DNA from: a virus
DNA length: 64,000 nt
UHGV virus genome: UHGV-1353844
Reading direction: 5' to 3' (one strand)
Position 1 is the first letter of the stretch. The number at the start of each line of letters is the position of its first letter. The position numbers and the translations under genes are program-made. Shown here piece by piece: positions 24,229 through 55,463 of this stretch. The notes beneath the pieces were generated by a model. The model made no database searches. It was not told where the DNA came from and was given only the letters and a program-made list of their open reading frames with translations.

Positions 24229-24265
24229 GACAGGCTGCCTGCGGGCAGTTGTGTGTCCGTAGGTA

Positions 24266-24300: not shown

Positions 24301-24322
24301 TTTAAAAGTAGGAGTCTTTACG

Positions 24323-27300
24323 ATGCCGAGAGAAGACGCGGCGCAGTTTAACGGTACGCTAAGCACAGCGACGTACCCTAACCGATTTAACGTGGTCATT
24401 CCGCCTGAAGGACCTTTTTATCGTATCGGATTAAAACTCACAGTAGCCGACGATACCGCGCCTAACGGACGTCGTACTCTGATTGAGGGGTTGGACTACT
24501 ATTTAGGCTATTACTTTAAAGAACTCGCAGAAGCTGAACAAGATCAGATTTACGGCGGGTTTATGTTGCTTACTGCAACAGAAATCGAATATGAGATTTT
24601 AGGGGTAGCACGTCAATACCGTGTACCGCAATCTGAAATCGGGAAGTTCTTAGTTCGTACTGACCTGAAAGACCCACGTAACGTGGACTGGTCTGAACTA
24701 ATGGCGTATGCGCCGGTTATTCAGCCTATCGACCCGCCTGCTAACTTAGAAGAAGCGATTCTGAGGGATGAGGTTGTTAAGGCGTTAGAAGACATTCGCA
24801 AGAAAATCATCAAACGTTCTACGGAATTAGATGCTGCGTTCAGTGAAGTCACTAACTTGATTTACGAGAACGGTAAAAAGGTTTTCGACGAAGAGTTATA
24901 CCAGCATCACCGTAACCCTAACGCGCATCATTATACCACTGATGACATTGCTGCTCTCCCGGTATTAGGTCGTGCTGTTGACGCTACAAAAGCGTTTGGG
25001 TTGACGATTGACGAGTTGGCTACGCTGATGGGTTCAGCGGGTATTGAGCAATCGGACGTTGACCAGTTAATGGGTGAAGCCCTCGGCACCGTTTACGGTC
25101 GATGGGGTACCACGAACGGTAATGAATTAACGTTTAAAACGTCAGGTGGCCACATCATCAGTATTCGTGGTGATAAGTGGTTAATTACCTCGCCACAACC
25201 GTTGGTGATTAAAGCAGACCAGGACAACAACGAATCGGGTTTAGCGGTTGAATTCAGTGCGGGTCTGAATACGCTTTGGGTTCACTCGGGGTCGGAACAG
25301 GACGTATTAGCGCCAGTTTATAACTCCGTGTACCTGGTTACACCAGAAATGGTGAACATGTATCTGACGTCAGTAACGTTGCTTGAAGCAAACGCGTATT
25401 TCAAAGCGTCAGACACTGTAAAACCGTACGGTACCGCAAAACAGACTAACCCGGTTACGTTAAACGCGAATATTCCCACGGCGTCCGAATCAGTTTATGG
25501 GTTGTTCTCGATTACGAATATCTCTACGTCTGCGGCGTTAGGTACTGCTATCTCCCAGAAAGCTGTAACAGAATTAAAAGACCGCTTGGACTTGTACGTT
25601 GACGATGACTATACCGTTAACGGTAAAGGGTTTGTTAAAACAGGCGACAATATGGTGTTAACCTTAACGAAAACCGATTTCGGTATCGATAAGATGGATA
25701 ACACCATACCGAGTGATAAGCCTGTGACAAAAGCGTTAACGAACGTGTTGAAAAACAAGAGTTTGAAAACGCACACCCACACCACTGCTGACTTGGATAA
25801 CGTCCCGATTGGTAGTGCAACGGTTGACGGTATCTTACAGCTCTGGGATGCAATTGACACCACTAACGATAAAGCTGTCACGTCGCGTCAAGGCTGGTTG
25901 TTCGCAAAAGAGATTAAGAAGGTCTCTGATAAACTGAATACCATCTTACCGGCGTGGACGGTAGGTGGAGCGAAATTCGGTAACAAGAACTTCTTACCTA
26001 TCCCAGCGTTAGGTAACTACGCAGGCTATACCAAAAACCAGTCCTACCAGAAAGGGGTTGTTGGGTATCAGCAGGGTAAGGTTTATTCGCTCCGTAACGG
26101 TTCTAACGGCGTGCCGGGTACGGAAGCTATTTATTACGGCTATGCTGACATTGACACGTCAAACGCGTTTGTAAATCCGCAGCAGACCTCAGTGAAATAT
26201 CACCCTGCCGGGATGAGTAAATATCCTGGGGTGACCCTAATAGCGATATTGATCGGTGGCCAGGAAGCGATTATTTGCCTGGGTTCTGACAATAACCGTT
26301 ATTTGGTGCTGTTTAATGGCTCGATGGACCACACTAAGCACACGGTGGTATGTCGCGTTACGATGCCCGTGTACCGTAACGGCAACCCCAGTGGTACTGT
26401 GGAACAAACCTGGAACCCGTGGCCGGAAGCTGACGATGTCGTGTTGGTTGAGGACTACGTTTATCTTCTCCGTTCAACGGTAAATAACTCCGCTTACGCC
26501 GTAGCAGCTTGGCGTCTACGTAAGGCCGATTTGTCTACTAACACTACGTTAGAATTTGAACGTGTAACTCTAACCGGCGAGATGGGACAATTCGGAGATA
26601 ACCTCTGCTTGCGTATTGGTCAGAAAACCGAAGAGTCGCAAACGGGTCAATTCTTTACATATCTCACACCGGAGGGTCGTGCTAAATGGACGATCGGGCG
26701 TAACTTTGTTCACGGTCCAGAATGTAACCACGCGTGTGCTGTGCGCGATAGCGTGATTCGTGTGAACCATATGCCTACCGTGTGGTTTGCAGCGGCCGAC
26801 GGTACGACGATTAATTTCCTTCAATGGGCAACAAGTTTTACAATCGATACGTTGACGGGCAAGGTTACGTTAGAAGGCCGCGAACGCTTCCCCATCAAGG
26901 CTGATGCTACTACTACACTCTCGTTCGCAGATGGTTCAACTGTAGGAACCAATCGTAAGTGGGGTGGTGGCCAGGCAAACAACCGTTGTTTCGCGACGTA
27001 TGCTAAACCCAACGGTACAGGAATGATGCTTTCCTGTTGGCAAATTGCCGATGCGGACCAAATGCCTAATGTTTCTATTAAGAGTACACAAGGCAGAGAG
27101 CTTTTCGATTATCTGCGTTACGATAACCCAAACAACACCTCGGGCGAAGGAACGTTTACCTGGGATAAAGGCCGTGGCTCCATTTACACCATCGGTTTGT
27201 CTTATCCAGTAGGGATTGGTGGTTCGAATAAGGTCTGGTTATCGAACCCTCGTAACCGTTACACGATCGAAGTGGAAGTTGATCCGAACAAACCTTACGA

Positions 27301-29509
27301 TGTTTCTGGGTATAGTGGGTACGGTCCGAACAACAACCGTCGTGAAGTCGATCCAACGCTTTACGAGCAGCTTAGCTGTATGGCTGCGTGCATGATCCCT
27401 GAGGAGCGTCATGGACAGTTGAACGGCTGGTATTTGACCAAAGCAGAAACGTTCCCGTATCGTAACATCTACGGTAACTTCGCATTGTCTTCCGAACGCT
27501 TAACGCTAGAAGAAGCCGATCGGCAGAAAATGATTCGGATGATCGTTGACGGTGCGCCATCTGGTCAAGCAAATGGTTACGCGAACGAACGTATTAGTGC
27601 TGCACATCAAACCGGTAATGCATTGTTTGCTCTTTGGATGTTGGGTATCAACACCGTGTGCGAATTTGACTTGTTGCAAGTTTCGTGCATGAAAACCTCA
27701 AGTAACGGACGTCGAATTCTTGACATCTATTACTTCATGGTGAGCCCATCTAAAGAGAACGGCTACTTACGTTTCAACTCAGCCACCTTTAAGTTGGTGG
27801 ACTGGTTCTTAGACCTCGATTATGGTTTAAGTTATCAGTCACTAAATGGGGGAGCGGGAGGTAAAACGAGGCGCGTGGGGCAGCCTATTTTTGCATCTGC
27901 GGATGGAACTAACTTCGGTATCTGGTTACCTTATACGTTAACTACCCGAAATATCGGGGACTTAAACGCCCTGGGCTACGCTGCTAAATATACCTTCGAC
28001 CCTGGTTCAGGTTGGACACGCGTTGCAGGTAAATCACAGTTACGGCAGATGGCCCCTGAACATAGACCAGAATCTGGGTGCTATATGGGTGCCGGTGATT
28101 GGGACAAGATGGCGTTGATTTACTCTAAAGCTGACCGTGTTTTCTGTTCAGGTAACGCGTATACAGCCGCAGAGTTCGTTAACGACACGACGTTCTCAAC
28201 CGGAGGTCAGGCGGTTATTATTGCCGGTGTGGAAACAGCGGAAGGTTGGATTCTGTATTTGACAGAAGAAGTCAAATTAGATTTCGGTAGCAGCAGTTAC
28301 ACACTCCCAACGTGGTCTGTGGATTTAAGCAGTGAGTTCCCATCCAATCACGCTAACCAGACGTTCTACGTGCACGCTGAGGTGTCGGGTTCTACCGCGC
28401 AATACCGCATCGGTTTGGAGCAGTTAGCCGATACCTCAACAAGACTGTTCGTTGGGACAGTAACCACCGATTCCAGCCGTATTACTGGTATCAGTATCGA
28501 CAAAGTAAAACGTTTGGGTCGTGTGAAAGAACTGGAAGACCACGCAGCAATTATCGACCAACACGATGTAGCAGCAGCGTTTGACAGAAAGACGGGTCCT
28601 CTATTAACACTGGTTAACAAGCCCGTTAAAGCACCTACGGCGTCTGCGTCGAAAGGTGAAGGGTATGTTGACGGTCAGAAATGGGGTTCACTGTCCGGCA
28701 TTACGACGCGTCCTAAGTTACCAATTCAGGAAACGTATTCGGGTTATAAGAGCGTGGCCAGGGTAGCGTATGAGAACTGCGCTGACCAATTCTGGCAGAA
28801 AGCGGTAGCTGCTAACATTGCGACAGCCACTGCTTCTGAGAACATGCAGGCAGCGTCTGCGAACATGAAATGGATTGGTGCGTATACGAAACCGACTACC
28901 GGAACGAATGCTTACTTAGCATTGAGTTTGCGTGTTCAGGTGCCAGGTAATCCAGGAACGGCGAATCGTGCTCTGAAACTACGACTTGCTGCACCAACCG
29001 GTATTGTTGAAGCTCGGTATGCATTAAACCAGGCCGGTGGTACGATGACTGAACAAACGGTAACGTTAACCGCCAACCAGTACCTGGAAAAAGAGCACAG
29101 TGGGTTTAAACCTGCCGAGGAGGTTCGTGTTCATGTCACGTTCGTTATTCCGAAGAACGAGTATGAAAGTTATCGTACGAAGTTTGGGGCGGTACAGTTG
29201 ATTGACGTTGAATCGAACACCATCGTCAAGCAGGCTGATATCGACACACCGTTCTTTGTCTTTACGGACACTGAACTGGCTGCGCAATCTGGTTTGGTGT
29301 ATAAAGCGGTCAAGGGTCAGTTTGACAATCTCCCGAGTGAACCTACGCTCATTGTCCGAGATGGTCAGACCGGAACTAACCCACCGGTGAAATCGTCTTA
29401 CGCTAACGGTACGCTAACCGTTTACGTAGCGACCGCGTACGATGCCGTGAATCCGGCGGAAACTCGCGATATCGACAAACTCCAGTTCAATCTTATGTTT
29501 ACATCTTAA
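24323..29509 (+). CDS. tail fibre protein (1728 aa) with shared N-terminal anchor module
   Basis: AGGAG SD; N-terminal EGPFYRIGL...GLDYYL module; fibre motifs VYGLFSITNISTSAALGTAIS and DKMDNTIPSDKPVTKAL. Confidence 0.65.
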   Translation: MPREDAAQFNGTLSTATYPNRFNVVIPPEGPFYRIGLKLTVADDTAPNGRRTLIEGLDYYLGYYFKELAEAEQDQIYGGFMLLTATEIEYEILGVARQYRVPQSEIGKFLVRTDLKDPRNVDWSELMAYAPVIQPIDPPANLEEAILRDEVVKALEDIRKKIIKRSTELDAAFSEVTNLIYENGKKVFDEELYQHHRNPNAHHYTTDDIAALPVLGRAVDATKAFGLTIDELATLMGSAGIEQSDVDQLMGEALGTVYGRWGTTNGNELTFKTSGGHIISIRGDKWLITSPQPLVIKADQDNNESGLAVEFSAGLNTLWVHSGSEQDVLAPVYNSVYLVTPEMVNMYLTSVTLLEANAYFKASDTVKPYGTAKQTNPVTLNANIPTASESVYGLFSITNISTSAALGTAISQKAVTELKDRLDLYVDDDYTVNGKGFVKTGDNMVLTLTKTDFGIDKMDNTIPSDKPVTKALTNVLKNKSLKTHTHTTADLDNVPIGSATVDGILQLWDAIDTTNDKAVTSRQGWLFAKEIKKVSDKLNTILPAWTVGGAKFGNKNFLPIPALGNYAGYTKNQSYQKGVVGYQQGKVYSLRNGSNGVPGTEAIYYGYADIDTSNAFVNPQQTSVKYHPAGMSKYPGVTLIAILIGGQEAIICLGSDNNRYLVLFNGSMDHTKHTVVCRVTMPVYRNGNPSGTVEQTWNPWPEADDVVLVEDYVYLLRSTVNNSAYAVAAWRLRKADLSTNTTLEFERVTLTGEMGQFGDNLCLRIGQKTEESQTGQFFTYLTPEGRAKWTIGRNFVHGPECNHACAVRDSVIRVNHMPTVWFAAADGTTINFLQWATSFTIDTLTGKVTLEGRERFPIKADATTTLSFADGSTVGTNRKWGGGQANNRCFATYAKPNGTGMMLSCWQIADADQMPNVSIKSTQGRELFDYLRYDNPNNTSGEGTFTWDKGRGSIYTIGLSYPVGIGGSNKVWLSNPRNRYTIEVEVDPNKPYDVSGYSGYGPNNNRREVDPTLYEQLSCMAACMIPEERHGQLNGWYLTKAETFPYRNIYGNFALSSERLTLEEADRQKMIRMIVDGAPSGQANGYANERISAAHQTGNALFALWMLGINTVCEFDLLQVSCMKTSSNGRRILDIYYFMVSPSKENGYLRFNSATFKLVDWFLDLDYGLSYQSLNGGAGGKTRRVGQPIFASADGTNFGIWLPYTLTTRNIGDLNALGYAAKYTFDPGSGWTRVAGKSQLRQMAPEHRPESGCYMGAGDWDKMALIYSKADRVFCSGNAYTAAEFVNDTTFSTGGQAVIIAGVETAEGWILYLTEEVKLDFGSSSYTLPTWSVDLSSEFPSNHANQTFYVHAEVSGSTAQYRIGLEQLADTSTRLFVGTVTTDSSRITGISIDKVKRLGRVKELEDHAAIIDQHDVAAAFDRKTGPLLTLVNKPVKAPTASASKGEGYVDGQKWGSLSGITTRPKLPIQETYSGYKSVARVAYENCADQFWQKAVAANIATATASENMQAASANMKWIGAYTKPTTGTNAYLALSLRVQVPGNPGTANRALKLRLAAPTGIVEARYALNQAGGTMTEQTVTLTANQYLEKEHSGFKPAEEVRVHVTFVIPKNEYESYRTKFGAVQLIDVESNTIVKQADIDTPFFVFTDTELAAQSGLVYKAVKGQFDNLPSEPTLIVRDGQTGTNPPVKSSYANGTLTVYVATAYDAVNPAETRDIDKLQFNLMFTS

Positions 29510-32861: not shown

Positions 32862-33779
32862 ATGATAGACAATGTGGAATCCAGGATCTCGACGAAGTTG
32901 TACGATAAACCCACTATATTGTCCGTAGTTACGACGTCTAAGTGTAACCTAGACTGTAGTTTCTGCGGTGGAGCCTACTACATGAATCGTGAAGATTCGT
33001 CTCGTGCTTTTCAACGCGAACGTATCCTGGAATTACTACAAGAGAATCCAGCTATTAAGGAAATACATTGGACGGGTGGTGAACCGCTACTCGTCCAACG
33101 TAAGATTGAGGATTTCGTTAACGAACTGAAAGTGTCTCATCCGCACCTTGAGCATCACTTGTATACCAACGGCTTAAAACTGCGTAAATCGCATCTTACG
33201 CTGCTAAAAGACTTTGAGCATGTGTTTGTATCAATTGATGGCTACAAACGTTCTGAGCGCCCTTTTATGCGCTTTATTGAAGAGGATAGCCACGAAGCAC
33301 TGGAAGCGTTATACGAACTCGATAACTTCCAAACCTGGGCTGTGATTACGCGTGACCAGTTAGCCGATAAGCGCTGGTATGAAGATATTGTGGATTTACA
33401 TCGTGCGATGTACCACTATCGTCCCCGTGCGTTTTCTCTGATGTTTGATGCCCAAATGCCAAAACCGTTGTCTCCCGATCACATCATGAACTTCGTTTAT
33501 GGTTATTTAAAGATTCAGGAGAATATGGAACGGCTGAACGTCCAAACCGGAGAATCGTGCGGCGTGTCTGTCAGCAAGATTTTCGAAAACGAGTGTAATG
33601 TCTGTAGCGAAGAGTTGTATTTGAACGCAGATGGAACAGAACATCAGCTTCAGAATGCACCGGCTATCTTAAACGGTGGGTGCAATCAGCTTGCTTGCTC
33701 TATCGGGGTAGGTGCTTACGAGTACATTAAACGCGTGATTTATGCAGAGCGTAAAAGGATAAGCAAAGATGAGCAATAA
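32862..33779 (+). CDS. radical SAM enzyme
   Basis: CxxxCxxC cluster (SKCNLDCSFCGG) at residues ~27-34; GGE motif (WTGGEPLL); additional C-terminal Cys pairs (CNVCSEE…CNQLAC). Confidence 0.7.
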   Translation: MIDNVESRISTKLYDKPTILSVVTTSKCNLDCSFCGGAYYMNREDSSRAFQRERILELLQENPAIKEIHWTGGEPLLVQRKIEDFVNELKVSHPHLEHHLYTNGLKLRKSHLTLLKDFEHVFVSIDGYKRSERPFMRFIEEDSHEALEALYELDNFQTWAVITRDQLADKRWYEDIVDLHRAMYHYRPRAFSLMFDAQMPKPLSPDHIMNFVYGYLKIQENMERLNVQTGESCGVSVSKIFENECNVCSEELYLNADGTEHQLQNAPAILNGGCNQLACSIGVGAYEYIKRVIYAERKRISKDEQ

Positions 33780-35103
33780 TGAAGCACCACGTTCACAACG
33801 TACTTACCAGGTGGTAACGAACCTGTCTTGTAACTTAGACTGTGAGTATTGTTACGAACGTAAGTATCCGCGTAATAACAAAGCGGCGGATATCGTGGAT
33901 TTCTTACACGCCTGTTTTGAGCGTGATAAAGATATTCCGAACATCGACGTCATTATTGATATCATCGGCGGCGAACCTTTTATGCAACCGAAACTGCTGT
34001 TAGCGGCGTTTGAAACCGCAGAACAGTTGTGTAAGGAGCATAATCGACCGTATATGTTCAGTATCTCCACGAACGGGACGTTGTTAGACCGTCCGTTAAA
34101 CCGTGAGATCGTCGAGCGTTGGAAAGACAAACTCTCCATCGGTGTGTCTATCGACGGGCTGCCAGAAGTCCATGACCGTTATCGTATCTTTACCACGACG
34201 CGTCAGGGTTCTTACGAAGCCGCTGTTCGTGGCTATAACTACTTAAAAGAAGTGGGTATTGCTGAACTGGGTATCAAGGCAACCTTTACAACCGAAACCC
34301 TCCCGCATTACGCGGCGAGTATGAAGTCGTTAATCGATATTGCGGGTGGTGGTACGATTTCGGGTAACGTGACGTACGAAGATATCCTTCCACGGAGCAT
34401 GGCAACGGATATTGCGTTGCAGATGATCGAGGTGATGGATTATTGGATTGAGAAAGGGCTGCACACCAATCCACGTAACGTGTTGTCCCACATCATTCCT
34501 GAAGGTCTGGATTTCCGTCAGATTTGGGACCCAGATTGGCGTGATAAACTGCTGTACGACGACACGCACCGTTATAACCCTGAACGTTTACGTCCGTTCT
34601 GTGGGACGTTGACGTTTATGACTTGTTTAGGTTTTGACCGTAAGGTGTATGGTTGTAACCGATTCATGTCAACGGTAACGTCACGCTCTGCGGTGTTTGA
34701 GTTAGTCGGTCGTGAGTTTGTTAGCTTAGACGGCGGGAAACTGCTGGAAGAGATTCAGACGCAATACACCAACTATCCTGAAACGTGCTTAGGTTGTCCG
34801 ATGAAACACGGTTGTGGGAGCTGTGCAGCTGCTTCCTACGAAAACGGTGAAGGGACACTGGAAGACCGTAAGGCGTACCACGCTGAACGACGTCAATGTG
34901 GTTGGACGACCGCAAAACTGATGGCGGCAGAATACTGGCGTCAACGTACAGGCACCGTCCACGCATCGTCACTGCACGATTCGTCTGTTTGTTACTGTCC
35001 GAAATGTACGCGTGAGCGTGAGCAAGCTAAACGTGCGTTAAATGCACAACCTACTGAGGCAAATAATGAAATCAATTCTGATCCACAATTTTACGAAGCG
35101 TAA
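33769..35103 (+). CDS. radical SAM/SPASM-domain enzyme (peptide-maturase-like)
   Basis: CNLDCEYC near N-terminus, GGEP motif, C-terminal Cys-rich SPASM-like cluster (CLGCPMKHGCGSC…); 11-nt overlap with the preceding radical SAM gene. Confidence 0.7.
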   Translation: MSNNEAPRSQRTYQVVTNLSCNLDCEYCYERKYPRNNKAADIVDFLHACFERDKDIPNIDVIIDIIGGEPFMQPKLLLAAFETAEQLCKEHNRPYMFSISTNGTLLDRPLNREIVERWKDKLSIGVSIDGLPEVHDRYRIFTTTRQGSYEAAVRGYNYLKEVGIAELGIKATFTTETLPHYAASMKSLIDIAGGGTISGNVTYEDILPRSMATDIALQMIEVMDYWIEKGLHTNPRNVLSHIIPEGLDFRQIWDPDWRDKLLYDDTHRYNPERLRPFCGTLTFMTCLGFDRKVYGCNRFMSTVTSRSAVFELVGREFVSLDGGKLLEEIQTQYTNYPETCLGCPMKHGCGSCAAASYENGEGTLEDRKAYHAERRQCGWTTAKLMAAEYWRQRTGTVHASSLHDSSVCYCPKCTREREQAKRALNAQPTEANNEINSDPQFYEA

Positions 35104-36350: not shown

Positions 36351-36881
36351 TTAAGCAGTAAAACCGTCCAATTCACCGTCGGTGGTGGCCAGGTCAATAC
36401 GATTATCGACTACCTTCGGTGTAATTACGAAAGTTGCCATTACACCCGGTTTATAACGGAGGTTCTGTTCAGTAACGGTGCATGTCACGGTACGCAGAGT
36501 GACGTTTTCATGTTCGTCTTTCTGGTCTTCGGTGCTGTACACAACGTCACCTGGCGCGATAGCGTCGTCAGGTTTTACTTTGTTGATGTATAGCTGTAAC
36601 CAAGCGCGGAGTTCATTTTCTTGAACCCAACGAGACAGATCGTCAGTTAGTTCAATCCGTCCTACAACACCCGGCTCCAGACGATCGTAATGCAGTTCGA
36701 TTTCGCCTTTGAAATTCTCAGAACCCGGTAGTGCGGTCATGGTAACTTTGGTATTCTTACTTTCGCCTTCCAGCGCAGTAGGGAGACCAAAGGACACTTC
36801 TTTATCTGTAATCTGATGCGGTAGCTCAGCGTTAGCAGCATTATAAAGCGCGACCAACATCATCTGGTTAGTAGCGGCCAT
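36351..36881 (-). CDS. hypothetical protein, paralog pair (C-terminus ...ELDGFTA)
   Basis: 176 aa; shares N-terminal pattern and C-terminal GELDGFTA with 36951..37487. Confidence 0.5.
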   Translation of the reverse strand: MAATNQMMLVALYNAANAELPHQITDKEVSFGLPTALEGESKNTKVTMTALPGSENFKGEIELHYDRLEPGVVGRIELTDDLSRWVQENELRAWLQLYINKVKPDDAIAPGDVVYSTEDQKDEHENVTLRTVTCTVTEQNLRYKPGVMATFVITPKVVDNRIDLATTDGELDGFTA

Positions 36882-36916
36882 TATCTTAGGTCCTTAATAG
36901 AACAAGTTAGAGAAAT

Positions 36917-36942
36917 ATCGGGGGAGGTCACCCCCCCCGATT
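36917..36942. repeat. homopolymeric C8 tract (G8 on coding strand) within imperfect hairpin; shared flank TCA-Cn-GATT
   Basis: ATCGGGGGAGG-TCA-CCCCCCCCGAT between the two ELDGFTA paralogs. Confidence 0.5.
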
Positions 36943-36950
36943 TAACTTAC

Positions 36951-37487
36951 TTAGCCACCGACACCCGGTGCAGTGAAGCCATCAAGTTCACCTTCCAGAC
37001 CGCTCAGCGCTACCTTCTCAGGAGCTGGGTTGGAATAAGTGAAGGTGGCAATAGTACCAGCCAGGAATTTAATGTGTGCATCGTTTACTTTGACAGTGTA
37101 AACTTTAGCACCACTATCCCCGTCAGTTTTCTCAATGGTCAGTTCGCTTTCAGCGAAATAGTCATCGACATAACCTTTAGTAACCATTTCTTCGTTCAGT
37201 TTGGTTACAATGGCAGAGTTTTCCAGATCGAGGCTACCGGCTTTTTCGTAAGCTTTGGCACCGATCAGGTCTTGAGAAGCCAGACGAATGTAGTGGAATT
37301 CTTTCTCGCCTTTGAAGTTCTGGCTTTCTGCCTTGGCGGTCAGCGTAATTTTGGTGTTACGACCACCGGTACCGCTGTGCGCTTCGACAGCACCAAAATC
37401 GACATCATCAACCGTCAGATTAGAAGCGGTTCCTGGGTTTTTAGCAATTACAGCTTCGACGAACTGCAGTTTGAAGGTTTTAGCCAT
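36951..37487 (-). CDS. hypothetical protein, paralog pair (C-terminus ...ELDGFTAPGVGG)
   Basis: 178 aa paralog. Confidence 0.5.
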   Translation of the reverse strand: MAKTFKLQFVEAVIAKNPGTASNLTVDDVDFGAVEAHSGTGGRNTKITLTAKAESQNFKGEKEFHYIRLASQDLIGAKAYEKAGSLDLENSAIVTKLNEEMVTKGYVDDYFAESELTIEKTDGDSGAKVYTVKVNDAHIKFLAGTIATFTYSNPAPEKVALSGLEGELDGFTAPGVGG

Positions 37488-37625
37488 CTTTTTACCTCGT
37501 AAGTGGTAGGGGTGGATTGCATAAGAATGTTATTTTAGACATTTCCTAAAATATAGATATGACGGTTGGCAGTAGGCGCTAACCTGAAAAAATTAATTTT
37601 TCTTAATTTTAATAAGGGTGAGATT

Positions 37626-38105
37626 ATGCTAAAACGCATTCTCGTGGTCGTTGCTTTTGTAATGACATTGGCAAGTTGTGCTATTCAGCCGAACGCAGAA
37701 GGTCAGTTCTCCACCGTACCTGTTGACCAACACGATATGGTCATTTACACCTGTACAGCTGCTTCTCAAGAATTCGACGATTTTAAACCGGTACCGTCTA
37801 GCCTAAAACTGATGCCCCTTTCGGTGTTAGTCATGGATACAGGGGCGAATTGGGTCGCTACATGGGACGAAGGTAAAATTGAATCTCCGCAACTTTATAA
37901 AGACCTGTTAGGCAAGGTGGACGGTAACTTAAACGTTGTTACCGGTGAGCGCTATTACCGTGTAAACGGGTTACTGTCGAAAACCCCAACGTTTGCGTAT
38001 TCTACCGTCAACTACAAAACGGGTGAAGGTAAAGGTGTAACGTTCTTCAGATGTCACGAAGGCAGCATTCCGGATACCGGCACTATGTTGCACCCGGTAG
38101 AATAA
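37626..38105 (+). CDS. lipoprotein (signal peptide with lipobox L-A-S-C)
   Basis: ATG at 37626 with AAGGGTGAG SD; MLKRILVVVAFVMTLASC…; only plus-strand gene in a minus-strand region; own terminator. Confidence 0.55.
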   Translation: MLKRILVVVAFVMTLASCAIQPNAEGQFSTVPVDQHDMVIYTCTAASQEFDDFKPVPSSLKLMPLSVLVMDTGANWVATWDEGKIESPQLYKDLLGKVDGNLNVVTGERYYRVNGLLSKTPTFAYSTVNYKTGEGKGVTFFRCHEGSIPDTGTMLHPVE

Positions 38106-38110
38106 TAAAT

Positions 38111-38145
38111 ACCCTCCTGCTTAGCAGGAGGGTAGGCTTATTTTG
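38111..38145 (+). terminator. rho-independent terminator after lipoprotein gene
   Basis: ACCCTCCTGC-TTA-GCAGGAGGGT followed by AGGCTTATTTTG. Confidence 0.55.
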
Positions 38146-38225
38146 TCCGTAAAACGCTCTAGAATGCGTTCTAAGACAGTTTATACAAAATAATGTACAA
38201 TCACCCTAAGTTAAGGATTATGCGC

Positions 38226-38741
38226 TTAGATTTTAACTAAGGCGCTCCAATCGATAGGGCTTTGTTTCACGACTTTCACAGTACCGCGATTCGGTGACCA
38301 GAACGTGATATTCGGTTGGTTACGAACGTCGATATGTAACCAACTGATGTCGCATTCGATAAAGTGAATGAACGGAAATTCGTCAGGATTAGCGGCGATA
38401 TAGTCGTGGACTTGTTTTACCGTTGAGTCTAACAGTGTTGCGTCAAATGCATTACCGAACTTGTGCTGACTCCCTGAATCAGAGTAGAGTTGTAACGCAC
38501 GTTGTTTATAGTTACCACCCTTAGGCTTTTCTTGGTTGATGAAAAAGTCTAAGGTTCTTAGGCCACGCTGTTGCGCAGCAGACGAGTTAATCACCATTCT
38601 GCCGAAACGGTTACGAATCTGTTGTAGCGAAATCATTAACAACGGGTTCATAAACCGAATTGCAGAATCACCGTATTTGGCGATGTACGATTGTGGTACT
38701 AACTCTTTGAGTTTAAAGTTACTCGGATTTGGATGAAACAT
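38226..38741 (-). CDS. peptidase M15-family peptidoglycan hydrolase (T5-endolysin-like)
   Basis: Zn-binding H-x6-D motif (SQHKFGNAFDA) and downstream His (WLHIDV), as in M15 phage endopeptidases. Confidence 0.55.
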   Translation of the reverse strand: MFHPNPSNFKLKELVPQSYIAKYGDSAIRFMNPLLMISLQQIRNRFGRMVINSSAAQQRGLRTLDFFINQEKPKGGNYKQRALQLYSDSGSQHKFGNAFDATLLDSTVKQVHDYIAANPDEFPFIHFIECDISWLHIDVRNQPNITFWSPNRGTVKVVKQSPIDWSALVKI

Positions 38742-40154: not shown

Positions 40155-40634
40155 TTATTTTTTCTTCTTAGCGCGTGATGGCTTAGCTGGCGGTGTTTCA
40201 ACAGCCGGTTTACGTGCAACACGCACCGTAAAACCGCCGACCCAAGTCAGACACTCAGGACGGAAGAAAATACCGTGTTCGATTGCGCTACCGTCCAACG
40301 GTAACTCACCAACCTGTTCTACCCACACGTCGTCTTCTGTAAGGGTTAGGCTGTACTGCTCGTTAATGACGGGCAGTAAGTCAGCGGTAGTCGTTGCAGA
40401 TTCTACCAACAGTTTCGGTAATACGTTCAGGAAATACAAACCTGCGTCAATGCGGTTATACTGGAACGTTTGTTCGTTAGTGTAACCGAGATTCTTAATT
40501 GACGCAACTGTGATTTCGGTATTGTAAGTACCGGTGGTCACAACCGGATCGCCCAGCGTGACTTTGGTGGTGTCGAACTCAGCGTCCGGGTTAGCCTTTT
40601 TAATAAGGTCGAAGATAGTTTCTTGATTGGTCAT
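40155..40634 (-). CDS. hypothetical protein (lysine-rich C-terminal tail)
   Basis: 159 aa, ends ...PPAKPSRAKKKK; N-terminal pattern resembles the small-protein family at 36351/36951. Confidence 0.45.
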   Translation of the reverse strand: MTNQETIFDLIKKANPDAEFDTTKVTLGDPVVTTGTYNTEITVASIKNLGYTNEQTFQYNRIDAGLYFLNVLPKLLVESATTTADLLPVINEQYSLTLTEDDVWVEQVGELPLDGSAIEHGIFFRPECLTWVGGFTVRVARKPAVETPPAKPSRAKKKK

Positions 40635-40647
40635 TACTGTAATCCTC

Positions 40648-41496
40648 TTAATCTAAGAATCCCGGTAAGACCGGATTAGTCTGTGCTAATTCAATCTTCG
40701 ACTTCGGACGATCGGTACCGTTAAAGTGAATTAACAGGTTACCGGTCAGGTTAGAACACAGCGGGCTGAGCGTTAGCACCAACACACGAGTGAACTTCGT
40801 ATTTGCGCCTTCGTAACCTGCGGTTGGACCATCGTAAATAACTTTAGCACCGTACAGGTTGTTAGCCGCGTTCTTAGGTACACTTACCCATTTCTCATCA
40901 ACGACGCCATCCAGTTTAGAGGCTAACTCTACCAAGTCTACGGTGTCGTTGATAGTAATCGGGTCAAGGTAATCTTTTTCTGCGGTGAAATCAATCGGGT
41001 GTGAATAAACCGCAGCGTTACCTTTCTTAGTGGACGGATACTCTACCAGATTCTCTAATTGAGTAACTGGTAAAAGTTCAGTCAGGTCAATAGGATCATG
41101 CAGCGTAAGCGTTACTACACCGCACCACTCGTAAGATTTCTCGTTAGCGGTAAGCTGATGGGTTTCGCCTTCAACTTTTGCGTCAACGATATCCGAGGGT
41201 AAAATATTTAGGCTGTATTTTGCGTTGATCGCATTAAGCAAATCTGATGCGGTTACCACACTGTCGTTACCGAATACCAACTCACCGGTTAAGTAGTCAG
41301 GTAAATTACGACGGTGGTAAGTCACTGTTAAAGTAGTAGACTCATCGCCTTTGAGTTTAGAGGTCAGAACCACCTGGGTATCAACCCCAGTACCGGTAGG
41401 TTCTCCGATATCAACATCACTGAAAGTCAACGGTGGACTAATATTGTTTTCAGTGTTGATGAGTTTTAGCAGTTTCTGTTTTGACGTAAGAGACAT
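40648..41496 (-). CDS. hypothetical protein
   Basis: 282-aa ORF; N-terminal LLKLINTEN…FSDVDIGEPTGTG pattern. Confidence 0.45.
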   Translation of the reverse strand: MSLTSKQKLLKLINTENNISPPLTFSDVDIGEPTGTGVDTQVVLTSKLKGDESTTLTVTYHRRNLPDYLTGELVFGNDSVVTASDLLNAINAKYSLNILPSDIVDAKVEGETHQLTANEKSYEWCGVVTLTLHDPIDLTELLPVTQLENLVEYPSTKKGNAAVYSHPIDFTAEKDYLDPITINDTVDLVELASKLDGVVDEKWVSVPKNAANNLYGAKVIYDGPTAGYEGANTKFTRVLVLTLSPLCSNLTGNLLIHFNGTDRPKSKIELAQTNPVLPGFLD

Positions 41497-49572: not shown

Positions 49573-50076
49573 TTAACTAATCTTCAAATCTCTTAATGTG
49601 CCGGTTGATTTCATCACGTTTTGGAAAGCAGTGCTAATGTTAGAGGTCCAGTAATAATGTTGACCATTAATAACCTGCTGATAGGCTACCGTACAAGTGT
49701 TGCCGCCTAGATTTACGGTGATGTTAGAAGCTCTCCCACCTTGTAAATAGACCGCTAAACTTGGTTTTGCATCAGCAGCCAATGTGATCAATAGTAGTTG
49801 GATACCAATAAGTGTGCCTACGCCGCAGCTACCAGGATTCTGAATAGTCCCTTTATTTTTCTGCGCTAACGGCCAGTTTGGTCCCACCGCACCCCAAAAT
49901 TTAGCCATTGAATCGCTATATGCAGCAGTTGCGATTTTACAGCCAAGAGATCGGCCCACCATTTGACTCATCATAAAAGGTCTACCCAATCCTAATTTAC
50001 TACCAGCAGCACTCATCCATTGTTCGCCCGTTTCGTTCTTGGCCGAAGAACCGACCCATCCAGATGCTACCCCCAT
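49573..50076 (-). CDS. gp38-like adhesin paralog (shared N-terminal fibre-binding module, distinct C-terminus)
   Basis: N-terminus MGVASGWVGSSAKNETGEQWMSAAG… matches N-terminus of adjacent glycine-rich adhesin; no glycine-rich region. Confidence 0.45.
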   Translation of the reverse strand: MGVASGWVGSSAKNETGEQWMSAAGSKLGLGRPFMMSQMVGRSLGCKIATAAYSDSMAKFWGAVGPNWPLAQKNKGTIQNPGSCGVGTLIGIQLLLITLAADAKPSLAVYLQGGRASNITVNLGGNTCTVAYQQVINGQHYYWTSNISTAFQNVMKSTGTLRDLKIS

Positions 50077-50136
50077 TATACCCTATCCTTTTGAAAGGTG
50101 TGAGGAGGGGAGTGAGTATCCCCATACTTTTTCAAA

Positions 50137-50919
50137 TTAAACACGTGAACCATATATTGCACCTACTGCGTCCCATCTTGGCGCATTACCTCTAACGGCT
50201 GCACCAGCGGCTCCGCCGTTATATTCTGTACCGTTACCATGAGTATTACATCTTCCTCCAGCAGCACCGACATTACCACCCGAACCGCCTGTATATGCAC
50301 TAAGAGACCCCTCACCAACAGATCCTCTACCAGGAGCGGAAATAGTACCAGCAGCTGCACCGGAACTCATATGTGAGGAAGACCCACCAGCACCGAATGG
50401 GCGACCACCGCCACCACCAAATATTAGTCTACCCCTGTTACCGCCGCCACCGCCGCCACCGCCTCCGGCAATAGCGCCACGGTTGGTTATACGCAGTCTG
50501 TTTCCTATTCCGTTCTGTATTGCGGTTCCACCTGCACCGCCTGGTGAGTTAGAACCGCCGTTGCCTCCTCTGCCGTATACTGTAACCCCAGGATTGATGA
50601 TGAGTGTAATATACGAATTTGGAAGATTGCTAGGGAATTCTAAACAAGGAACCCCGCTACTATAAGACACTAAATCCCCTGTAATGGTCACAACGACAGC
50701 ATTAGAGCCTATAGAACGTAAATAGTTAATAAGCGTATCTTTATTGTAATTGTGATTAGCCCCGATCGAATACTGAACCTCTTTTGATTTTCCCGCCAAT
50801 TGCGACATCCAGCCTGGAACCGGCACACCAAGTGTGCGCATCGCGCCAGACATCCAATCGTTACCAGTTTCAGCTTTTGCTGAAGAACCAATCCAACCAC
50901 CTACGCCGACAACTGCCAT
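50137..50919 (-). CDS. gp38-like tail-fibre adhesin (T2-type, glycine-rich motifs)
   Basis: N-terminus MAVVGVGGWIGSSAKAETGNDWMS… and poly-Gly tracts (GGGGGGGGGN, GGGGGRPFGAGGSS) typical of T2/T6-type gp38; immediately downstream of the long tail fibre gene (TAATG overlap). Confidence 0.55.
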   Translation of the reverse strand: MAVVGVGGWIGSSAKAETGNDWMSGAMRTLGVPVPGWMSQLAGKSKEVQYSIGANHNYNKDTLINYLRSIGSNAVVVTITGDLVSYSSGVPCLEFPSNLPNSYITLIINPGVTVYGRGGNGGSNSPGGAGGTAIQNGIGNRLRITNRGAIAGGGGGGGGGNRGRLIFGGGGGRPFGAGGSSSHMSSGAAAGTISAPGRGSVGEGSLSAYTGGSGGNVGAAGGRCNTHGNGTEYNGGAAGAAVRGNAPRWDAVGAIYGSRV

Positions 50920-53900
50920 TAGGATCTTCCTTTAATTTCGTTAACCTCTTGACGCAACGCTTTCATACCCTCTACTAACAGCGCAATAACGCCATTGTAG
51001 TTTAGACGTAAACGTTTTTCGCCTGAAATGGCATCATCATCCTCAGACACAAGTTCAGGTAACGCTTCTAATGCGTCTTGAGCAATTAGACCTACCGAAG
51101 TGTTCCAACCGTCGTCTGGATGTTGAACCTCGTACAGATAGCCGGTAAGCGCTTCTAACCGATCCAAAGCCTTATCCAGCTTCACCAGATTACGTTTGTT
51201 GCGACGGTCAGAACGAATCTGTACGTCGTTAAACGAACCGTTACCGTTGCTAGAAATGTTATGACCAAAGGTTACTTGACCGTTAGAGTTATTAAAATAC
51301 AACGGACGTAGTCCGTTCCAGGAACCCGTTGCGGCTTGTCCGGAGTCGGTTACTAAGAAATAGGTATTGGCACCATCATTACGTAAAATGAAACCGCAGC
51401 TACCGTAAGCGATTCGGAAATCAGCATACTTCGTAACCAGTTTACCGTTAACCGTTAAATCGCCAGTGACAGTACCGCCGCTGTTCTTCAAAAACAGCGC
51501 ATCAATCCAGCCTGCAAATCCTGACTTATTGATGTATAAATTTCCATCATTTGCCAGAATGCCGCCACCCGGCGTCTTGAGAGGCTGACTCACATTTTGC
51601 AGCGTCAGCACACCATTCAATTGACCGCCAGATAATGGCAACGCCCCAACATCCGCAGCAGTTGGCTTGTTTTTCGTATTGTAAGCGCGACGCCAACCTG
51701 GTGAGTAAGCATCACCGTTATTTACGTAGATAAACTCCGCATTAGTGAGTGCGCCGCCGACGCTCGTCGTTGTGGGGGTCGTTATACGGATCGTGTAGTT
51801 GTTTGCGCTGTTACTAATCACTTCTATAACAGCCCCAGCTAACGGAATAACACCACAACCCGTCTCGCTGTTCGGTATGGACGCACTAGCAGCATAAGCC
51901 CATGCACAGCGAGCAACCCATGATTTTGTGGTAAACGCGCCGTTATTTTGCAATAACGTCACTAGCTGTGCTGTAGTTATTGCGCCGCCGTCTTTACCAG
52001 TCTCCAACCAACCAGTGGGCGAAGCCGGACAACCTATATCGGCAGGCCCTAACGATATATTTCTAGTACCGTCAAATGCGATACCGTTAATGGTACGCGC
52101 TGTCTGCAACTTTGTTGCCGTGGCTGCGTTTCCGGTAGTCGACTGATTACCCGTCTGGTTTACACCGGGCAGACTAATGTCTTGCGAACCGTCAAAGTTA
52201 ACACCGCCGATCTTACGTGCTGTTTGTAACTTAGTAGCGGTCGCTGCATTACCTGTCGTATTCTGGTTGCCTTGCTGGTTAACCCCCGGTAAATTGATAT
52301 CCCCAGTACCGTCAAAGGTAACGCCGCCGATTCTGCGAGCGGTTTTCAGTTTCGTCGCGGTAGCGGCATTGCCAGTAGTATCCTGATTACCGGTGGTATT
52401 TACACCAGGAATACTGTCACGGGCAGTATAAACTTGTGCCCAATCTGACCACGGCGCATCAGCCGTATCGCGTCGACTACGAATATAAACGGGTGCGTGT
52501 GCACCACTCGTGCCCGACCAACCAATTAACAACTCACCTTCGCCTAGCGCATTAGCACCACCTAAGTGCAGCAAGTTACCATAGGCGGTTGGATAACCGT
52601 TATTGTAAACTTCGTACATCTGGATACCAGGTGTACCCTTGTTCGACCCGGTCAGAGCGGTAACCCGTCCACGACCTACCAAGGTGTTGATATTGATGTC
52701 TCCAGAGCCATCGAATTTCACACCGTTAATATTTCTGGCGGTTTGAAGTTTAGTGGCTGTCGCGGCGTTACCTGTGGTGTTTTGATTACCTTGTTGGTTA
52801 ACACCTGGGAGGTTAACGTCGCCGCTGCCGTCGAAAGCGACCCCGCCAATTCTACGCGCAGTCTGGAGCTTAGTGGCGGTTGAAGCATTGCCGGTTAACT
52901 CACCTGCTAACCCTTTTGCAAAGGTCTGTTTCTCTGCCCAAGTGTGGGCTGCGTTCAACACAGGCATCTGTCGTGGCGTAATCGTACGGCTACCCTTCTC
53001 GCCAGCGATACGTACTGCAAAGAAGCGATAGTTAGCAGTAGACACTGTACCGCGCCAGACCAACATACTCCGACCAGTACCGGTGTCCTCTGACGCCCCT
53101 ACGAGAATACTGACCAAGTTACCGTCAATAACACCCCAATCCATTCCCGCAGGAATGTTTTTCATGGTATTCAACGGTGTACTTATCATCTGGCCAGGAA
53201 CGAAATCGAAGGTTTGCCAGTCTAACGGATCGACCTTGGCAGCAACCCCACCGATCCCTAAAGCCAACGGGAGTGAATAGGATGTGAAAATCTCTCGCCA
53301 TTCGCTCCAGGCGTTTCCTGTACGAATTCGTTGGAACTTGCGACCTTTCGTAGTTGCGCCTGTACCGTATGTGGTATAATTTTGTTCAACGCCTGAACCG
53401 TCTAAGCGTAAGGTAACTTCGCAAACACCTAACAAGGTTGCGCCAGCAGAGTCTGTTAACGGACCGTCAGTAGCCTCACCGGTAACACTAAAACGACCAG
53501 GTTTAGTTAAGTCATTAAAGCTACCCTTATAGTAGGCACCGTCTACCTGATACCCAACTTGAATCCAATCTTCCCACTGTGGATTAGACGCATCCCAAGT
53601 CGCAGTCAACCCACGGACATACATCGTACCACGACGAGTGGTGTAACGTTGCATACGTCCGTAGAGACCACCTTCCATTACTTCTAATACACCTTGAGCA
53701 TTACCACCTTCTTCGGGATAATGACGATCGAACGTCGCAAGAGAAGAACTGGAGTTACGCCACTGACCCATGTGTTCAACACCACCTAAAGTGTTAAGGT
53801 CAATAGTGGTGGAGAGCGGACGGTTCGCGGTAGTTGTCATTCTCCAGGGCGACCAAGGGCCGTTAGTACCGTTCCAGGTTCCTGTTAAACGACGAGTATA

Positions 53901-55444: not shown

Positions 55445-55463
55445 CATTTTTATAAGCGGGTTA

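What the first reader, a model, noticed from the sequence alone, without database searches (positions are those of the whole stretch)
37626..38105. Lone opposite-strand lipoprotein gene: candidate superinfection-exclusion factor
A 160-aa protein with a lipobox (LASC) is encoded on the plus strand inside a minus-strand region, with its own SD and terminator. The arrangement resembles phage lipoprotein genes such as T5 llp, which masks the receptor after infection and is transcribed separately from adjacent receptor-binding genes.
Basis: partly seen in the sequence, partly recalled or inferred. Interest (0 to 1): 0.45.

Follow-up and report, generated by a model that had tools for sequence, protein, structure and literature searches.

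The report
Jumbo-phage outer-membrane lipoprotein, accessory gene
A giant Salmonella-type phage carries a small self-contained gene for a protein that is almost certainly lipid-anchored to the infected cell's outer membrane; its position and relatives suggest it stops further phages from attaching or entering, but it belongs to no known family of such blockers and nobody has tested it.

Summary
Window 37626-38105 (+) encodes a 159-aa protein with a textbook lipoprotein signal (MLKRILVVVAFVMTLAS|C), a Shine-Dalgarno sequence, and a strong hairpin terminator. It is the only plus-strand gene among minus-strand genes.

The window comes from an SPN3US-like jumbo phage, and the gene is the orthologue of SPN3US gp159 (phrog_9559, function unknown). 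The family is tiny: 14 representatives among 1.84 billion proteins. Every member keeps the lipobox cysteine and two further cysteines, and none has Asp at +2.

The model (pLDDT 82) shows a tethered, roughly 8-stranded beta-barrel. It resembles only generic barrels, not T5 Llp. The gene is under purifying selection and has no row in the SPN3US virion proteome tables.

It is absent from Derbicusvirus relatives. Compared with them, it looks like an opposite-strand insertion at the junction between the M15 peptidase gene and a gp160-like gene. In distant relatives the gene lies directly after a tail-fibre gene, with a chaperone gene between them in two loci.

My best reading is an outer-membrane, periplasm-facing factor that blocks adsorption or entry, working like Llp, Cor or Rtp45 (confidence about 0.4). 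It is not a member of those families, and its function is untested. Interest is moderate.

The parts
37557..37563 (+). Conserved upstream element ATATGAC. TATG lies at 37558-37561, so the putative +1 G is at 37561, which would give a 65-nt leader.
   Evidence: TATGAC is present 45-70 nt upstream of the start codon in all 16 aligned loci, while the rest of the spacer diverges. It is the only intergenic ATATGAC in the window. TATG with +1 at the G is the core of phiKZ non-virion RNA polymerase late promoters (PMC4666361). Promoter function here is inferred, not shown.
37614..37622 (+). Shine-Dalgarno-like AAGGGTGAG, 3 nt before the ATG
   Evidence: Read directly from the sequence.
37626..37676 (+). 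Lipoprotein signal peptide, residues 1-17 (MLKRILVVVAFVMTLAS), with lipobox L-A-S-C
   Evidence: The lipobox is conserved in all 24 members of A4 and all 17 of A2.
37677..38102 (+). Mature lipoprotein, 142 residues. It comprises acylated Cys18, Ala at +2, a flexible tether up to about residue 27, a beta-barrel spanning about residues 28-145 with invariant Cys43 and Cys143, and a disordered tail (146-159).
38103..38105 (+). Stop codon TAA
38110..38134 (.). Bidirectional intrinsic-terminator-like hairpin (11-bp stem, 3-nt loop) between the convergent lipoprotein and M15-peptidase genes
   Evidence: Folding energy is -22.1 kcal/mol with z = -4.1. The stem is kept by compensatory changes across loci.
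36951..37487 (-). Divergent neighbour: a gp160-like DUF7941 protein ('g160b'). It is hypervariable. A conserved minus-strand TATG lies at 37523-37520.
   Evidence: Pfam and PHROG hits. It is always adjacent and divergent in all 18 jumbo-phage loci compared, L001-L018. It lies in the same divergence island as the lipoprotein gene. SPN3US gp160 is a head protein present at more than 300 copies (PMC5694885).
38226..38741 (-). Convergent neighbour: an M15-type peptidoglycan peptidase-like protein (orthologue of SPN3US gp158)
   Evidence: It carries the motif SQHKFGNAFD...HIDV. The Phobos orthologue is annotated 'putative peptidase M15A' and is 57% identical. It partly matches phrog_894.

Best explanation
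The gene encodes a phage protein made in the infected cell. It would be exported by Sec, lipid-modified on Cys18, and cleaved by signal peptidase II. [quoted passage not shown] There a folded beta-barrel of about 120 residues would hang in the periplasm on a tether of about 10 residues.

It is a self-contained accessory cassette with its own promoter-like element, SD and terminator, placed inside the fibre / peptidoglycan-hydrolase region of an SPN3US-like jumbo phage.

Its most likely job is envelope-level superinfection exclusion, also called lytic conversion. It would bind the periplasmic face of an outer-membrane component that this phage group needs for adsorption or penetration. Infected cells and lysis debris would then no longer capture or admit phage. 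This is how T5 Llp, Cor and Rtp45 work.

Shown: a real, constrained gene; an invariant lipoprotein signal; an independent and conserved transcription-unit architecture; accessory status; linkage to fibre genes in distant relatives.

Inferred: export and outer-membrane sorting; the disulfide; middle or late expression; the target; the exclusion activity itself.
For: 1. Lipoprotein signal. Cys18 is invariant across all aligned members at 26-96% identity to the window protein. The lipobox reads L/V-x-G/A/S-C, and no member has Asp at +2. Two more invariant cysteines (C43, C143) lie in the first long strand and the last strand of the barrel, which fits a periplasmic disulfide.

2. Not a virion part. 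The SPN3US virion proteome tables have no row for gp159, while the neighbours gp160 and gp158 are reported.

3. Own transcription unit. A conserved TATGAC element lies upstream, a terminator hairpin with covarying stem lies downstream, and the orientation is opposite to the neighbours in all 18 jumbo-phage loci compared, L001-L018.

4. Accessory, moron-like. Derbicusvirus phages CR5 and Phobos have DUF1353, M15 peptidase and gp160-like genes contiguous on one strand with nothing at this junction. Within the 'phages' collection, about 9 related records that carry DUF1353 lack the gene.

5. Host-range neighbourhood. In four distant homologues (27-32% identity) the gene follows a tail-fibre or tail-protein gene directly. 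In two of them (L019, L022) a Caudo_TAP or DUF4376 chaperone gene lies between. All four sit among fibre-like DUF7941 proteins. Two of those upstream genes are homologues of the window's own fibre and tail genes at 50919-58469.

6. Protein evolution about 10 times faster than the neighbours. dN is 0.24 against 0.02-0.05 versus locus L008, and the gene lies in a 1.4-kb divergence island (36900-38300) at about 60-68% nucleotide identity, against mostly 80-97% in the flanks.

7. Plausible target class. The window encodes a Gp38-type adhesin (PF05268, E = 3e-69). From established knowledge of T-even phages, this class binds outer-membrane proteins.

8. Matching layout. T5 llp and oad share the same divergent, short-spacer arrangement.
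Against: - No sequence or specific fold relation to any proven exclusion lipoprotein.
- The protein is more than twice the size of Llp or Rtp45 and forms a closed barrel.
- The reported receptor of the SPN3US relative is the flagellum (PMC11428620), not an outer-membrane protein.
- Several loops (ESPQLY, RYYR, GxGxG) are invariant across phages of Salmonella, Erwinia and Proteus. That points to a conserved target rather than a strain-variable receptor.
- Lipoprotein alleles do not co-vary with the big fibres, the T-even-like fibre or Gp38 in five close relatives.
- The conserved upstream motif resembles a late-type phiKZ promoter core, whereas Llp is made early.
- In the window the nearest neighbours are peptidoglycan hydrolases and a head protein, not a receptor-binding protein.
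Confidence: 0.4

Rival explanations
1. Spackle/MliC-like inhibitor. The barrel binds and inhibits a peptidoglycan hydrolase in the periplasm. Candidates are the tail-borne M15 peptidase (gp158-like) or a lysozyme of incoming phages. This would block cell-wall penetration by superinfecting phage or prevent lysis from without. It is still exclusion, but it acts at the penetration step rather than at the receptor.
For: - The gene is convergent with the M15 peptidase gene and lies within 1.5 kb of the GH108 endolysin.
- SPN3US gp158 was detected in virion preparations but not in tailless particles (PMC5105663).
- Like MliC, it is a lipoprotein barrel with one Cys in the first strand and one in the last. 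hhalign aligns the lipobox plus the 'YxC' strand at 43% probability.
Against: - The barrel similarity is generic. Cap15, NHBA and nitrobindin score as well or better.
- The MliC Pfam model is not matched even at E <= 1.
- By eye, the MliC loops SxSGAxY and YxxxTKG are not evident.
- Distant homologues sit beside tail fibres, with no hydrolase listed nearby.
- Linkage to the GH108/DUF1353 genes is rearranged in L013-L015.
- Asesino-type phages lack gp158 yet keep the lipoprotein.
Confidence: 0.13
2. Lysis component. It would act as an outer-membrane spanin subunit or another outer-membrane-disrupting accessory, working with the nearby endolysin at the end of infection.
For: - It is an outer-membrane lipoprotein close to two peptidoglycan hydrolase genes.
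- It is the only clean lipobox gene in the 64-kb window.
- It has a late-type promoter-like motif.
- SPN3US has a candidate spanin pair elsewhere: a type-II membrane protein at 180017-180487 followed by the lipoprotein at 180497-180976. In the window's closest relatives the second protein of that pair has no canonical lipobox. A different lipoprotein might therefore be needed.
Against: - There is no adjacent or overlapping gene with an N-terminal membrane anchor. The gene is monocistronic and on the opposite strand.
- The mature protein is a folded 141-aa barrel with a probable internal disulfide. That is unlike the short, proline-rich, largely unstructured o-spanins described in the spanin literature (my knowledge, not checked here).
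- The C-terminus is the least conserved part of the protein.
- Derbicusvirus relatives, which have an orthologous DUF1353/M15 peptidase block, lack the gene.
- Distant homologues lie in fibre clusters, not lysis clusters.
Confidence: 0.08
3. Ligand-binding or host-physiology accessory protein unrelated to exclusion. One possibility is a lipocalin/YceI/nitrobindin-like barrel that binds a lipid, polyisoprenoid or envelope precursor. Another is a surface-exposed 'adhesin-like' lipoprotein that alters the envelope of carrier-state cells.
For: - An automated third-party annotation calls the identical protein 'adhesin' (DAH66012.1).
- Near-identical phage contigs of about 220 kb occur in many Salmonella and E. 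coli isolate assemblies. This hints at prolonged carriage, in which a conversion gene could matter.
- The invariant Arg109, Tyr111 and Arg112 could form a binding site for an anionic ligand (inference).
Against: - This reading does not explain the repeated placement behind tail-fibre genes.
- No ligand-binding family signature is detected.
Confidence: 0.17
4. Cytoplasmic role. The hydrophobic N-terminus is not used as a signal, and the protein acts as a fibre-assembly factor or as a minor virion component.
For: It is linked to fibre and chaperone genes in the neighbourhood.
Against: - The lipobox Cys is invariant and the n-h-c signal architecture is intact in every member, down to 26% identity.
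- A conserved Cys pair suits the oxidising periplasm.
- The protein has no row in the SPN3US virion proteome tables.
Confidence: 0.03

Closest known systems
T5 Llp (lytic conversion lipoprotein; blocks FhuA from the periplasmic side)
   Same: - It is a phage-encoded lipoprotein from a strictly lytic phage.
- It has its own promoter and is divergent from a virion gene across a short spacer: 80 bp in T5 against 138 bp here.
- The mature part contains a pair of cysteines.
- The proposed site of action is the periplasmic leaflet of the outer membrane (PMC9586334).
   Different: - There is no homology. hhalign aligns only the signal peptide.
- Mature Llp is 61 aa, against 141-142 aa and a beta-barrel here.
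- The divergent partner of llp is the receptor-binding protein pb5. Here the partner is a gp160-like protein whose SPN3US orthologue is an abundant head protein.
- Llp is made early, whereas the motif here resembles a late-type one.
- The host phage is a siphovirus, whereas this is a nucleus-forming jumbo myovirus.
Rtp45 and Cor-type exclusion lipoproteins of small siphophages (Rtp45 binds LptDE; Cor acts on FhuA)
   Same: - They are small-phage lipoproteins that act at the periplasmic outer-membrane interface to prevent receptor-binding-protein attachment, including to lysis debris (PMC12685063).
- From my own knowledge, these genes lie near the tail-fibre or receptor-binding genes.
   Different: - They are proteins of about 6-7 kDa.
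- No family model for exclusion lipoproteins matched this protein in Pfam, NCBIfam or PADLOC.
- They have proven targets. None is known here.
MliC/PliC periplasmic lysozyme inhibitors and, functionally, T4 Spackle
   Same: - They are lipoprotein or periplasmic 8-stranded barrels with a first-strand to last-strand cysteine pair.
- The gene sits beside peptidoglycan hydrolase genes.
   Different: - The MliC Pfam model is not matched.
- hhalign covers only 25 columns at 43% probability.
- Other, unrelated barrels score equally well.
- From my own knowledge, Spackle is helical and not a lipoprotein.
Lambda Bor (opposite-strand lipoprotein moron beside the lysis genes)
   Same: It is an independently transcribed, opposite-strand outer-membrane lipoprotein gene inserted next to lysis genes. 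This description of Bor rests on my own knowledge.
   Different: - Bor belongs to a temperate phage, is expressed from the prophage, and confers serum resistance.
- The Lambda_Bor Pfam model is not matched.
- The phage here belongs to a group of lytic jumbo phages.

Membership tests
Bacterial-type lipoprotein (Lgt/LspA/Lnt substrate) | N-terminal signal with a positively charged n-region, a hydrophobic h-region, and a lipobox [LVI][ASTVI][GAS]C with the Cys at about position 15-35 | tested here: met
   MLKRILVVVAFVMTLAS-C18 passes the PROSITE-style rule. The Cys is invariant in A2 and A4.
Bacterial-type lipoprotein (Lgt/LspA/Lnt substrate) | Actual acylation and cleavage by signal peptidase II | not testable with these tools
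   This needs palmitate labelling, globomycin treatment or mass spectrometry.
Outer-membrane-sorted lipoprotein (Lol pathway, Enterobacterales +2 rule) | No Asp at position +2 after the lipid-modified Cys | tested here: met
   Residue +2 is Ala here. In all aligned homologues it is A, S, V, Q or K, never D. The sorting rule itself is established knowledge.
T5 Llp family | Sequence homology of the mature domain to Llp | tested here: not met
   hhalign of the family profile against verified T5 Llp aligns 17 columns, all within the signal peptide.
T5 Llp family | Binding to, and inactivation of, the phage's own outer-membrane receptor | not testable with these tools
   The receptor of this phage is unknown. 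Adsorption and EOP assays are needed.
Functional class: receptor-masking exclusion lipoproteins (Llp, Cor, Rtp45) | Gene placed in or next to the receptor-binding / tail-fibre module | tested here: inconclusive
   This is met in four distant homologues. In the window and in 18 jumbo-phage loci the direct neighbours are a gp160-like protein and peptidoglycan hydrolases, with fibres 8 kb or more away.
Functional class: receptor-masking exclusion lipoproteins (Llp, Cor, Rtp45) | Allele co-variation with the receptor-binding protein, as for T5 versus BF23 | tested here: not met
   The two lipoprotein alleles (A and B) do not track the alleles of the three large fibre candidates, the T-even-like fibre tip or Gp38 in five relatives. 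This is a small sample.
Two-component spanin, outer-membrane subunit | Partner gene for an inner-membrane subunit that is embedded, overlapping or adjacent on the same strand | tested here: not met
   The gene is monocistronic, and neither flanking gene has a membrane anchor. A separate candidate pair exists in SPN3US at 180017-180976.
Two-component spanin, outer-membrane subunit | Short, proline-rich, largely unstructured mature domain | tested here: not met
   The mature domain is a confident beta-barrel of about 120 residues (pLDDT 82).
MliC/PliC lysozyme inhibitor family (PF09864) | Match to the family profile and its conserved inhibitory loops | tested here: not met
phrog_9559 (phage protein family of unknown function) | Full-length profile match | tested here: met
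   E = 9.7e-70, residues 2-150 of the protein against positions 2-152 of the 166-position profile.

The most novel reading that the evidence does not exclude
This would be the first envelope-level superinfection-exclusion device found in nucleus-forming jumbo phages. It is a portable, self-transcribed cassette encoding a new beta-barrel lipoprotein fold. It would not mask a variable receptor. Instead it would disable a conserved step from the periplasmic side. Two possibilities are inhibiting the tail-borne peptidoglycan peptidase of incoming jumbo phages (Spackle-like), or jamming a conserved outer-membrane or flagellar-base component used for irreversible binding. The invariance of its loops across phages of Salmonella, Erwinia and Proteus would fit such a conserved target.
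Probability: 0.12. Interest if true: 0.7.

Novelty: new variant of a known kind. Interest (0 to 1): 0.42.

Why it matters
Nucleus-forming jumbo phages are studied intensively for how they protect their DNA inside the cell. How they deal with competitors at the cell surface is almost unexplored. A 2026 review of jumbo-phage biology does not contain the words superinfection, lipoprotein or spanin.

If this protein blocks adsorption or entry, it would add a third structural type of exclusion lipoprotein. It would also point to the true terminal receptor or entry step of SPN3US-like phages. It would matter for phage cocktails too, because a cell infected or carrying such a phage could become refractory to others. 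Near-identical contigs of about 220 kb occur in many Salmonella isolate assemblies.

If the protein does something else, it is still a conserved, exported jumbo-phage protein with a tractable assay.

Tried and rejected
- Megablast of the region against phage genomes found nothing. Protein-level searches were needed.
- The following gave nothing beyond the signal peptide: Pfam, NCBIfam and PADLOC scans, a PDB sequence search, and hhalign against Llp and MliC.
- I tested whether lipoprotein alleles co-vary with fibre or adhesin alleles in five close relatives, and found no co-variation. An apparent link to the gp160-like neighbour is only partial. L008 and L009 share the lipoprotein allele but differ strongly in that neighbour.
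- Gene-wide dN/dS shows purifying selection, not positive selection.
- I tried to use a spanin-like pair elsewhere in SPN3US to exclude the spanin reading. The argument is weakened because the second protein loses its lipobox in the window's closest relatives.
- The SPN3US infection-proteomics paper (PMC6384053) is not held, so expression timing could not be checked.
- Rfam found nothing in the window.
- The upstream TTG start (179 aa) is rejected, because all homologues align from the ATG.

Full report
**Observation**

Window 37626-38105 (+) is an intact ORF of 159 codons plus a stop. Its product begins MLKRILVVVAFVMTLAS-C. This has two basic residues, a 13-residue uncharged hydrophobic core, and the lipobox L-A-S-C with Cys at position 18.

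A PROSITE-style lipobox rule applied to every ORF of the window picks this gene plus only short antisense or internal ORFs. AAGGGTGAG lies 3 nt before the ATG.

Five bases after the stop there is a perfect 11-bp hairpin (38110-38134) with T-rich tracts on both strands. It folds at -22.1 kcal/mol, z = -4.1.

The gene is the only plus-strand gene between two minus-strand genes (36351-37487) and a long minus-strand run starting at 38226.

**Origin of the window**

There is no near-identical phage genome in the reference collection. At protein level the gene has orthologues (47-60% identity) in 56 jumbo-phage records: Salmonella SPN3US-like (Seoulvirus), Erwinia Asesino/phiEaH2 (Erskinevirus), Wellington-like and others.

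The SPN3US orthologue is gp159 (SPN3US_0159), which sits in the same lone orientation between gp160 and gp158. The exact protein is in GenBank as DAH66012.1, from a metagenome-assembled Caudoviricetes genome with the automated name 'adhesin'. Its 90% cluster contains about 220-kb contigs from many Salmonella and E. coli isolate assemblies.

**The protein family**

The protein matches phrog_9559 (unknown function) over its full length. It matches nothing in Pfam, NCBIfam, PADLOC or PDB sequences, apart from signal-peptide-level noise.

An exhaustive profile search of 1.84 billion representatives found only 14 proteins, two of them scrambled-looking. The 5.8-billion-cluster search found 24 clusters.

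In alignments reaching down to 26% identity, the lipobox Cys is invariant. So are Cys43, Cys143, Gly73, Arg109, Tyr111, Arg112, Ser126, Gly133 and Gly135. No member has Asp at +2.

With 24 sequences, AlphaFold2 gives pLDDT 82 and pTM 0.71. The model has a signal helix, a low-confidence tether, an all-beta domain spanning about residues 28-145, and a disordered tail. Cys43 and Cys143 lie in the first long strand and the last strand. In a closed up-and-down barrel these strands are neighbours, so a barrel-closing disulfide is likely.

**It is a functional gene**

dN/dS is 0.05-0.22 in four close pairs. At saturated synonymous divergence, its protein changes about ten times faster than the neighbouring peptidase, DUF1353 and endolysin genes (dN 0.24 against 0.02-0.05).

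In two otherwise close relatives, the gene and the gp160-like neighbour form a 1.4-kb island (36900-38300) of about 60-68% nucleotide identity, against mostly 80-97% in the flanks.

**Transcription unit**

Upstream regions from 16 loci share almost nothing except two elements. One is TATGAC on the gene's strand, 45-70 nt before the start (window 37558-37563). The other is a TATG on the opposite strand before the gp160-like gene (37523-37520).

In phiKZ, T-A-T-G with +1 at the G is the necessary core of late promoters used by the non-virion RNA polymerase (PMC4666361; PMC7598289). I therefore infer, but have not shown, two back-to-back phage-polymerase promoters 41 bp apart and middle or late expression.

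The terminator stem is preserved by compensatory substitutions in eight loci.

**Neighbourhood and phyletic pattern**

In all 18 jumbo-phage loci compared (L001-L018), the gene is divergent from a gp160-like gene. The GH108 endolysin and DUF1353 genes are always within a few kb, but they have been moved to the other side in three loci.

SPN3US gp160 is a head protein present at more than 300 copies. gp168-170, which correspond by position to the window's three giant ORFs at 15711-29509, are baseplate or fibre candidates (PMC5694885). gp158 is a low-abundance protein seen in whole virions but not in tailless particles (PMC5105663). gp159 has no row in the virion proteome tables.

Derbicusvirus relatives (CR5, Phobos) have the same block: g162, g161, DUF1353, M15 peptidase and gp160-like gene(s). 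In them the block is collinear on one strand, with only about 60-90 bp between the peptidase and the first gp160-like gene, and no lipoprotein gene. Relative to them, the lipoprotein gene is an opposite-strand insertion carrying its own promoter-like element and terminator. That is the classic anatomy of a moron or accessory cassette.

**Distant relatives are the most informative**

Four homologues at 27-32% identity come from uncultured phages. Each lies on the same strand immediately behind a tail-fibre or large tail-protein gene:
- L019: Phage_tail_fib / Phage_fiber_2, phrog_6722 at E = 8e-239, followed by a Caudo_TAP chaperone.
- L022: fibre gene followed by a DUF4376 chaperone.
- L020: a 1375-aa tail protein (phrog_2871).
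- L021: lies between two DUF7941-headed fibre-like proteins.

Two of the upstream genes are homologues of the window's own genes at 55464-58469 and 50919-55385.

The latter is a T-even-like long fibre (Gp34_trimer, Peptidase_S74). It is followed by a Gp38 adhesin (PF05268, E = 3e-69) at 50137-50916. From established knowledge of T2-type phages, Gp38 adhesins bind outer-membrane proteins. So this phage plausibly uses an outer-membrane protein, whatever the flagellar dependence reported for SPN3US (PMC11428620).

**Mechanism**

Established knowledge of Lgt/LspA/Lnt processing and of the Lol '+2 rule' predicts an acylated protein in the inner leaflet of the outer membrane, with its barrel in the periplasm.

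This is a non-virion, exported, accessory and fast-evolving protein, and in relatives it travels with fibre genes. For such a protein the best-supported role is exclusion at the envelope. Known phage lipoproteins of this kind are T5 Llp, which acts on FhuA (PMC9586334), and Rtp45, which acts on LptDE (PMC12685063). They bind the periplasmic face of the receptor and stop receptor-binding-protein attachment to infected cells and debris. T5 llp has the same divergent, short-spacer layout.

I put this reading at about 0.4. The reasons for caution are:
- there is no homology to any proven exclusion lipoprotein;
- the mature protein is about 141 aa against about 60 aa;
- several loops are invariant across phages of different host genera;
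- there is no allele co-variation with fibres or Gp38;
- the promoter motif looks late-type.

**Rivals**

- Spackle/MliC-like inhibitor of a peptidoglycan hydrolase. This is attractive because the gene abuts an M15 peptidase and lies near the endolysin, and because the lipoprotein-barrel-disulfide design recalls MliC. However, the profile tests fail and the fold match is generic.
- Spanin subunit. This is disfavoured by the lack of a partner gene, the folded barrel, the variable C-terminus, the absence of the gene from relatives with an orthologous DUF1353/M15 peptidase block, and the fibre context. SPN3US has a separate spanin-like pair at 180017-180976. The second member of that pair lacks a lipobox in the window's closest relatives, so this rival is not fully excluded.
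- Ligand-binding or conversion function unrelated to exclusion. This remains possible.

**Verdict**

It is best described as a new, structurally distinct candidate within the known functional kind 'phage exclusion / lytic-conversion lipoprotein', in a phage group where no such function has been described. A 2026 jumbo-phage review mentions neither superinfection nor lipoproteins. Interest is moderate.

Noticed in passing
window 49573-55385 (-): A T-even-type long-tail-fibre module sits in an SPN3US-like jumbo phage. It comprises a 1487-aa fibre (Gp34_trimer plus a Peptidase_S74 chaperone domain), a Gp38 adhesin (PF05268, E = 3e-69) at 50137-50916, and a second Gp38_N protein at 49573-50073. 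The fibre is highly mosaic among close relatives, while Gp38 stays at about 95% identity.
   Followed up: partly
window 6654-8373 (-): Four tandem small ORFs (129, 136, 160 and 130 aa) each start with a signal-peptide-like hydrophobic segment. This looks like a cluster of secreted or periplasmic phage proteins.
   Followed up: no
window 38160-38173, and the same spacer in Asesino- and SPN3US-type loci (A5): A conserved near-palindrome, TAGAA(T/C)GCGTTCTA, lies between the lipoprotein terminator and the next gene's stop codon. It is kept across the Salmonella-type and Erwinia-phage loci in A5. It has no significant repeat elsewhere in the window. Its function is unknown. It could be a second stem-loop or a protein-binding site.
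   Followed up: partly
window 38226-38741 (-): The convergent neighbour has an M15-type zinc-peptidase motif (SQHKFGNAFD...HIDV). The Phobos orthologue is annotated peptidase M15A. SPN3US gp158 was seen in whole virions but not in tailless particles (PMC5105663), so it may be a tail-borne cell-wall peptidase.
   Followed up: partly
SPN3US NC_027402.1 180017-180976 (L033 33017-33976); L037 16029-16991: This is an unannotated spanin-like pair: a 156-aa type-II membrane protein followed by a 159-aa lipoprotein (LLTGC). In the window's closest relatives the second protein has only a Sec-like signal with no canonical lipobox (MKSLLFIMILCVGLVSNGYG). The pair would lie about 5-6 kb beyond the window's left end.
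   Followed up: partly
window 36351-37487 (-), 40155-41496 (-); L019, L021, L022: DUF7941 / phrog_1037 forms the N-terminal part of the small gp160-like proteins, and SPN3US gp160 is an abundant head protein. In distant phages the same domain heads 570-1480-aa proteins with LRR, DUF285 or TIM-barrel C-termini that look like fibres or spikes. The copy next to the lipoprotein gene is hypervariable, with three alleles among five close relatives.
   Followed up: partly
protein cluster of window 37626-38102: Near-identical copies lie on contigs of about 220-227 kb in assemblies of many Salmonella enterica serovars (Agona, Enteritidis, Javiana, Chester and others) and of E. coli. This suggests that this jumbo phage often travels with isolates, either in a carrier state or as contamination.
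   Followed up: no
window 55464-58469 (-); L048 4000-10100; L040/L043: The 1001-aa tail protein gene is absent from the related contig 113438. It also carries an internal stop in contig 095954. It is therefore dispensable or variable, even though its homologue sits next to the lipoprotein gene in distant phages.
   Followed up: partly
window 32862-35103 (+): By synteny with SPN3US gp164 and gp163, these two ORFs are radical-SAM proteins. They lie between the giant fibre candidates and the DUF4376 chaperone-like gene. That is an unusual place for such enzymes.
   Followed up: no
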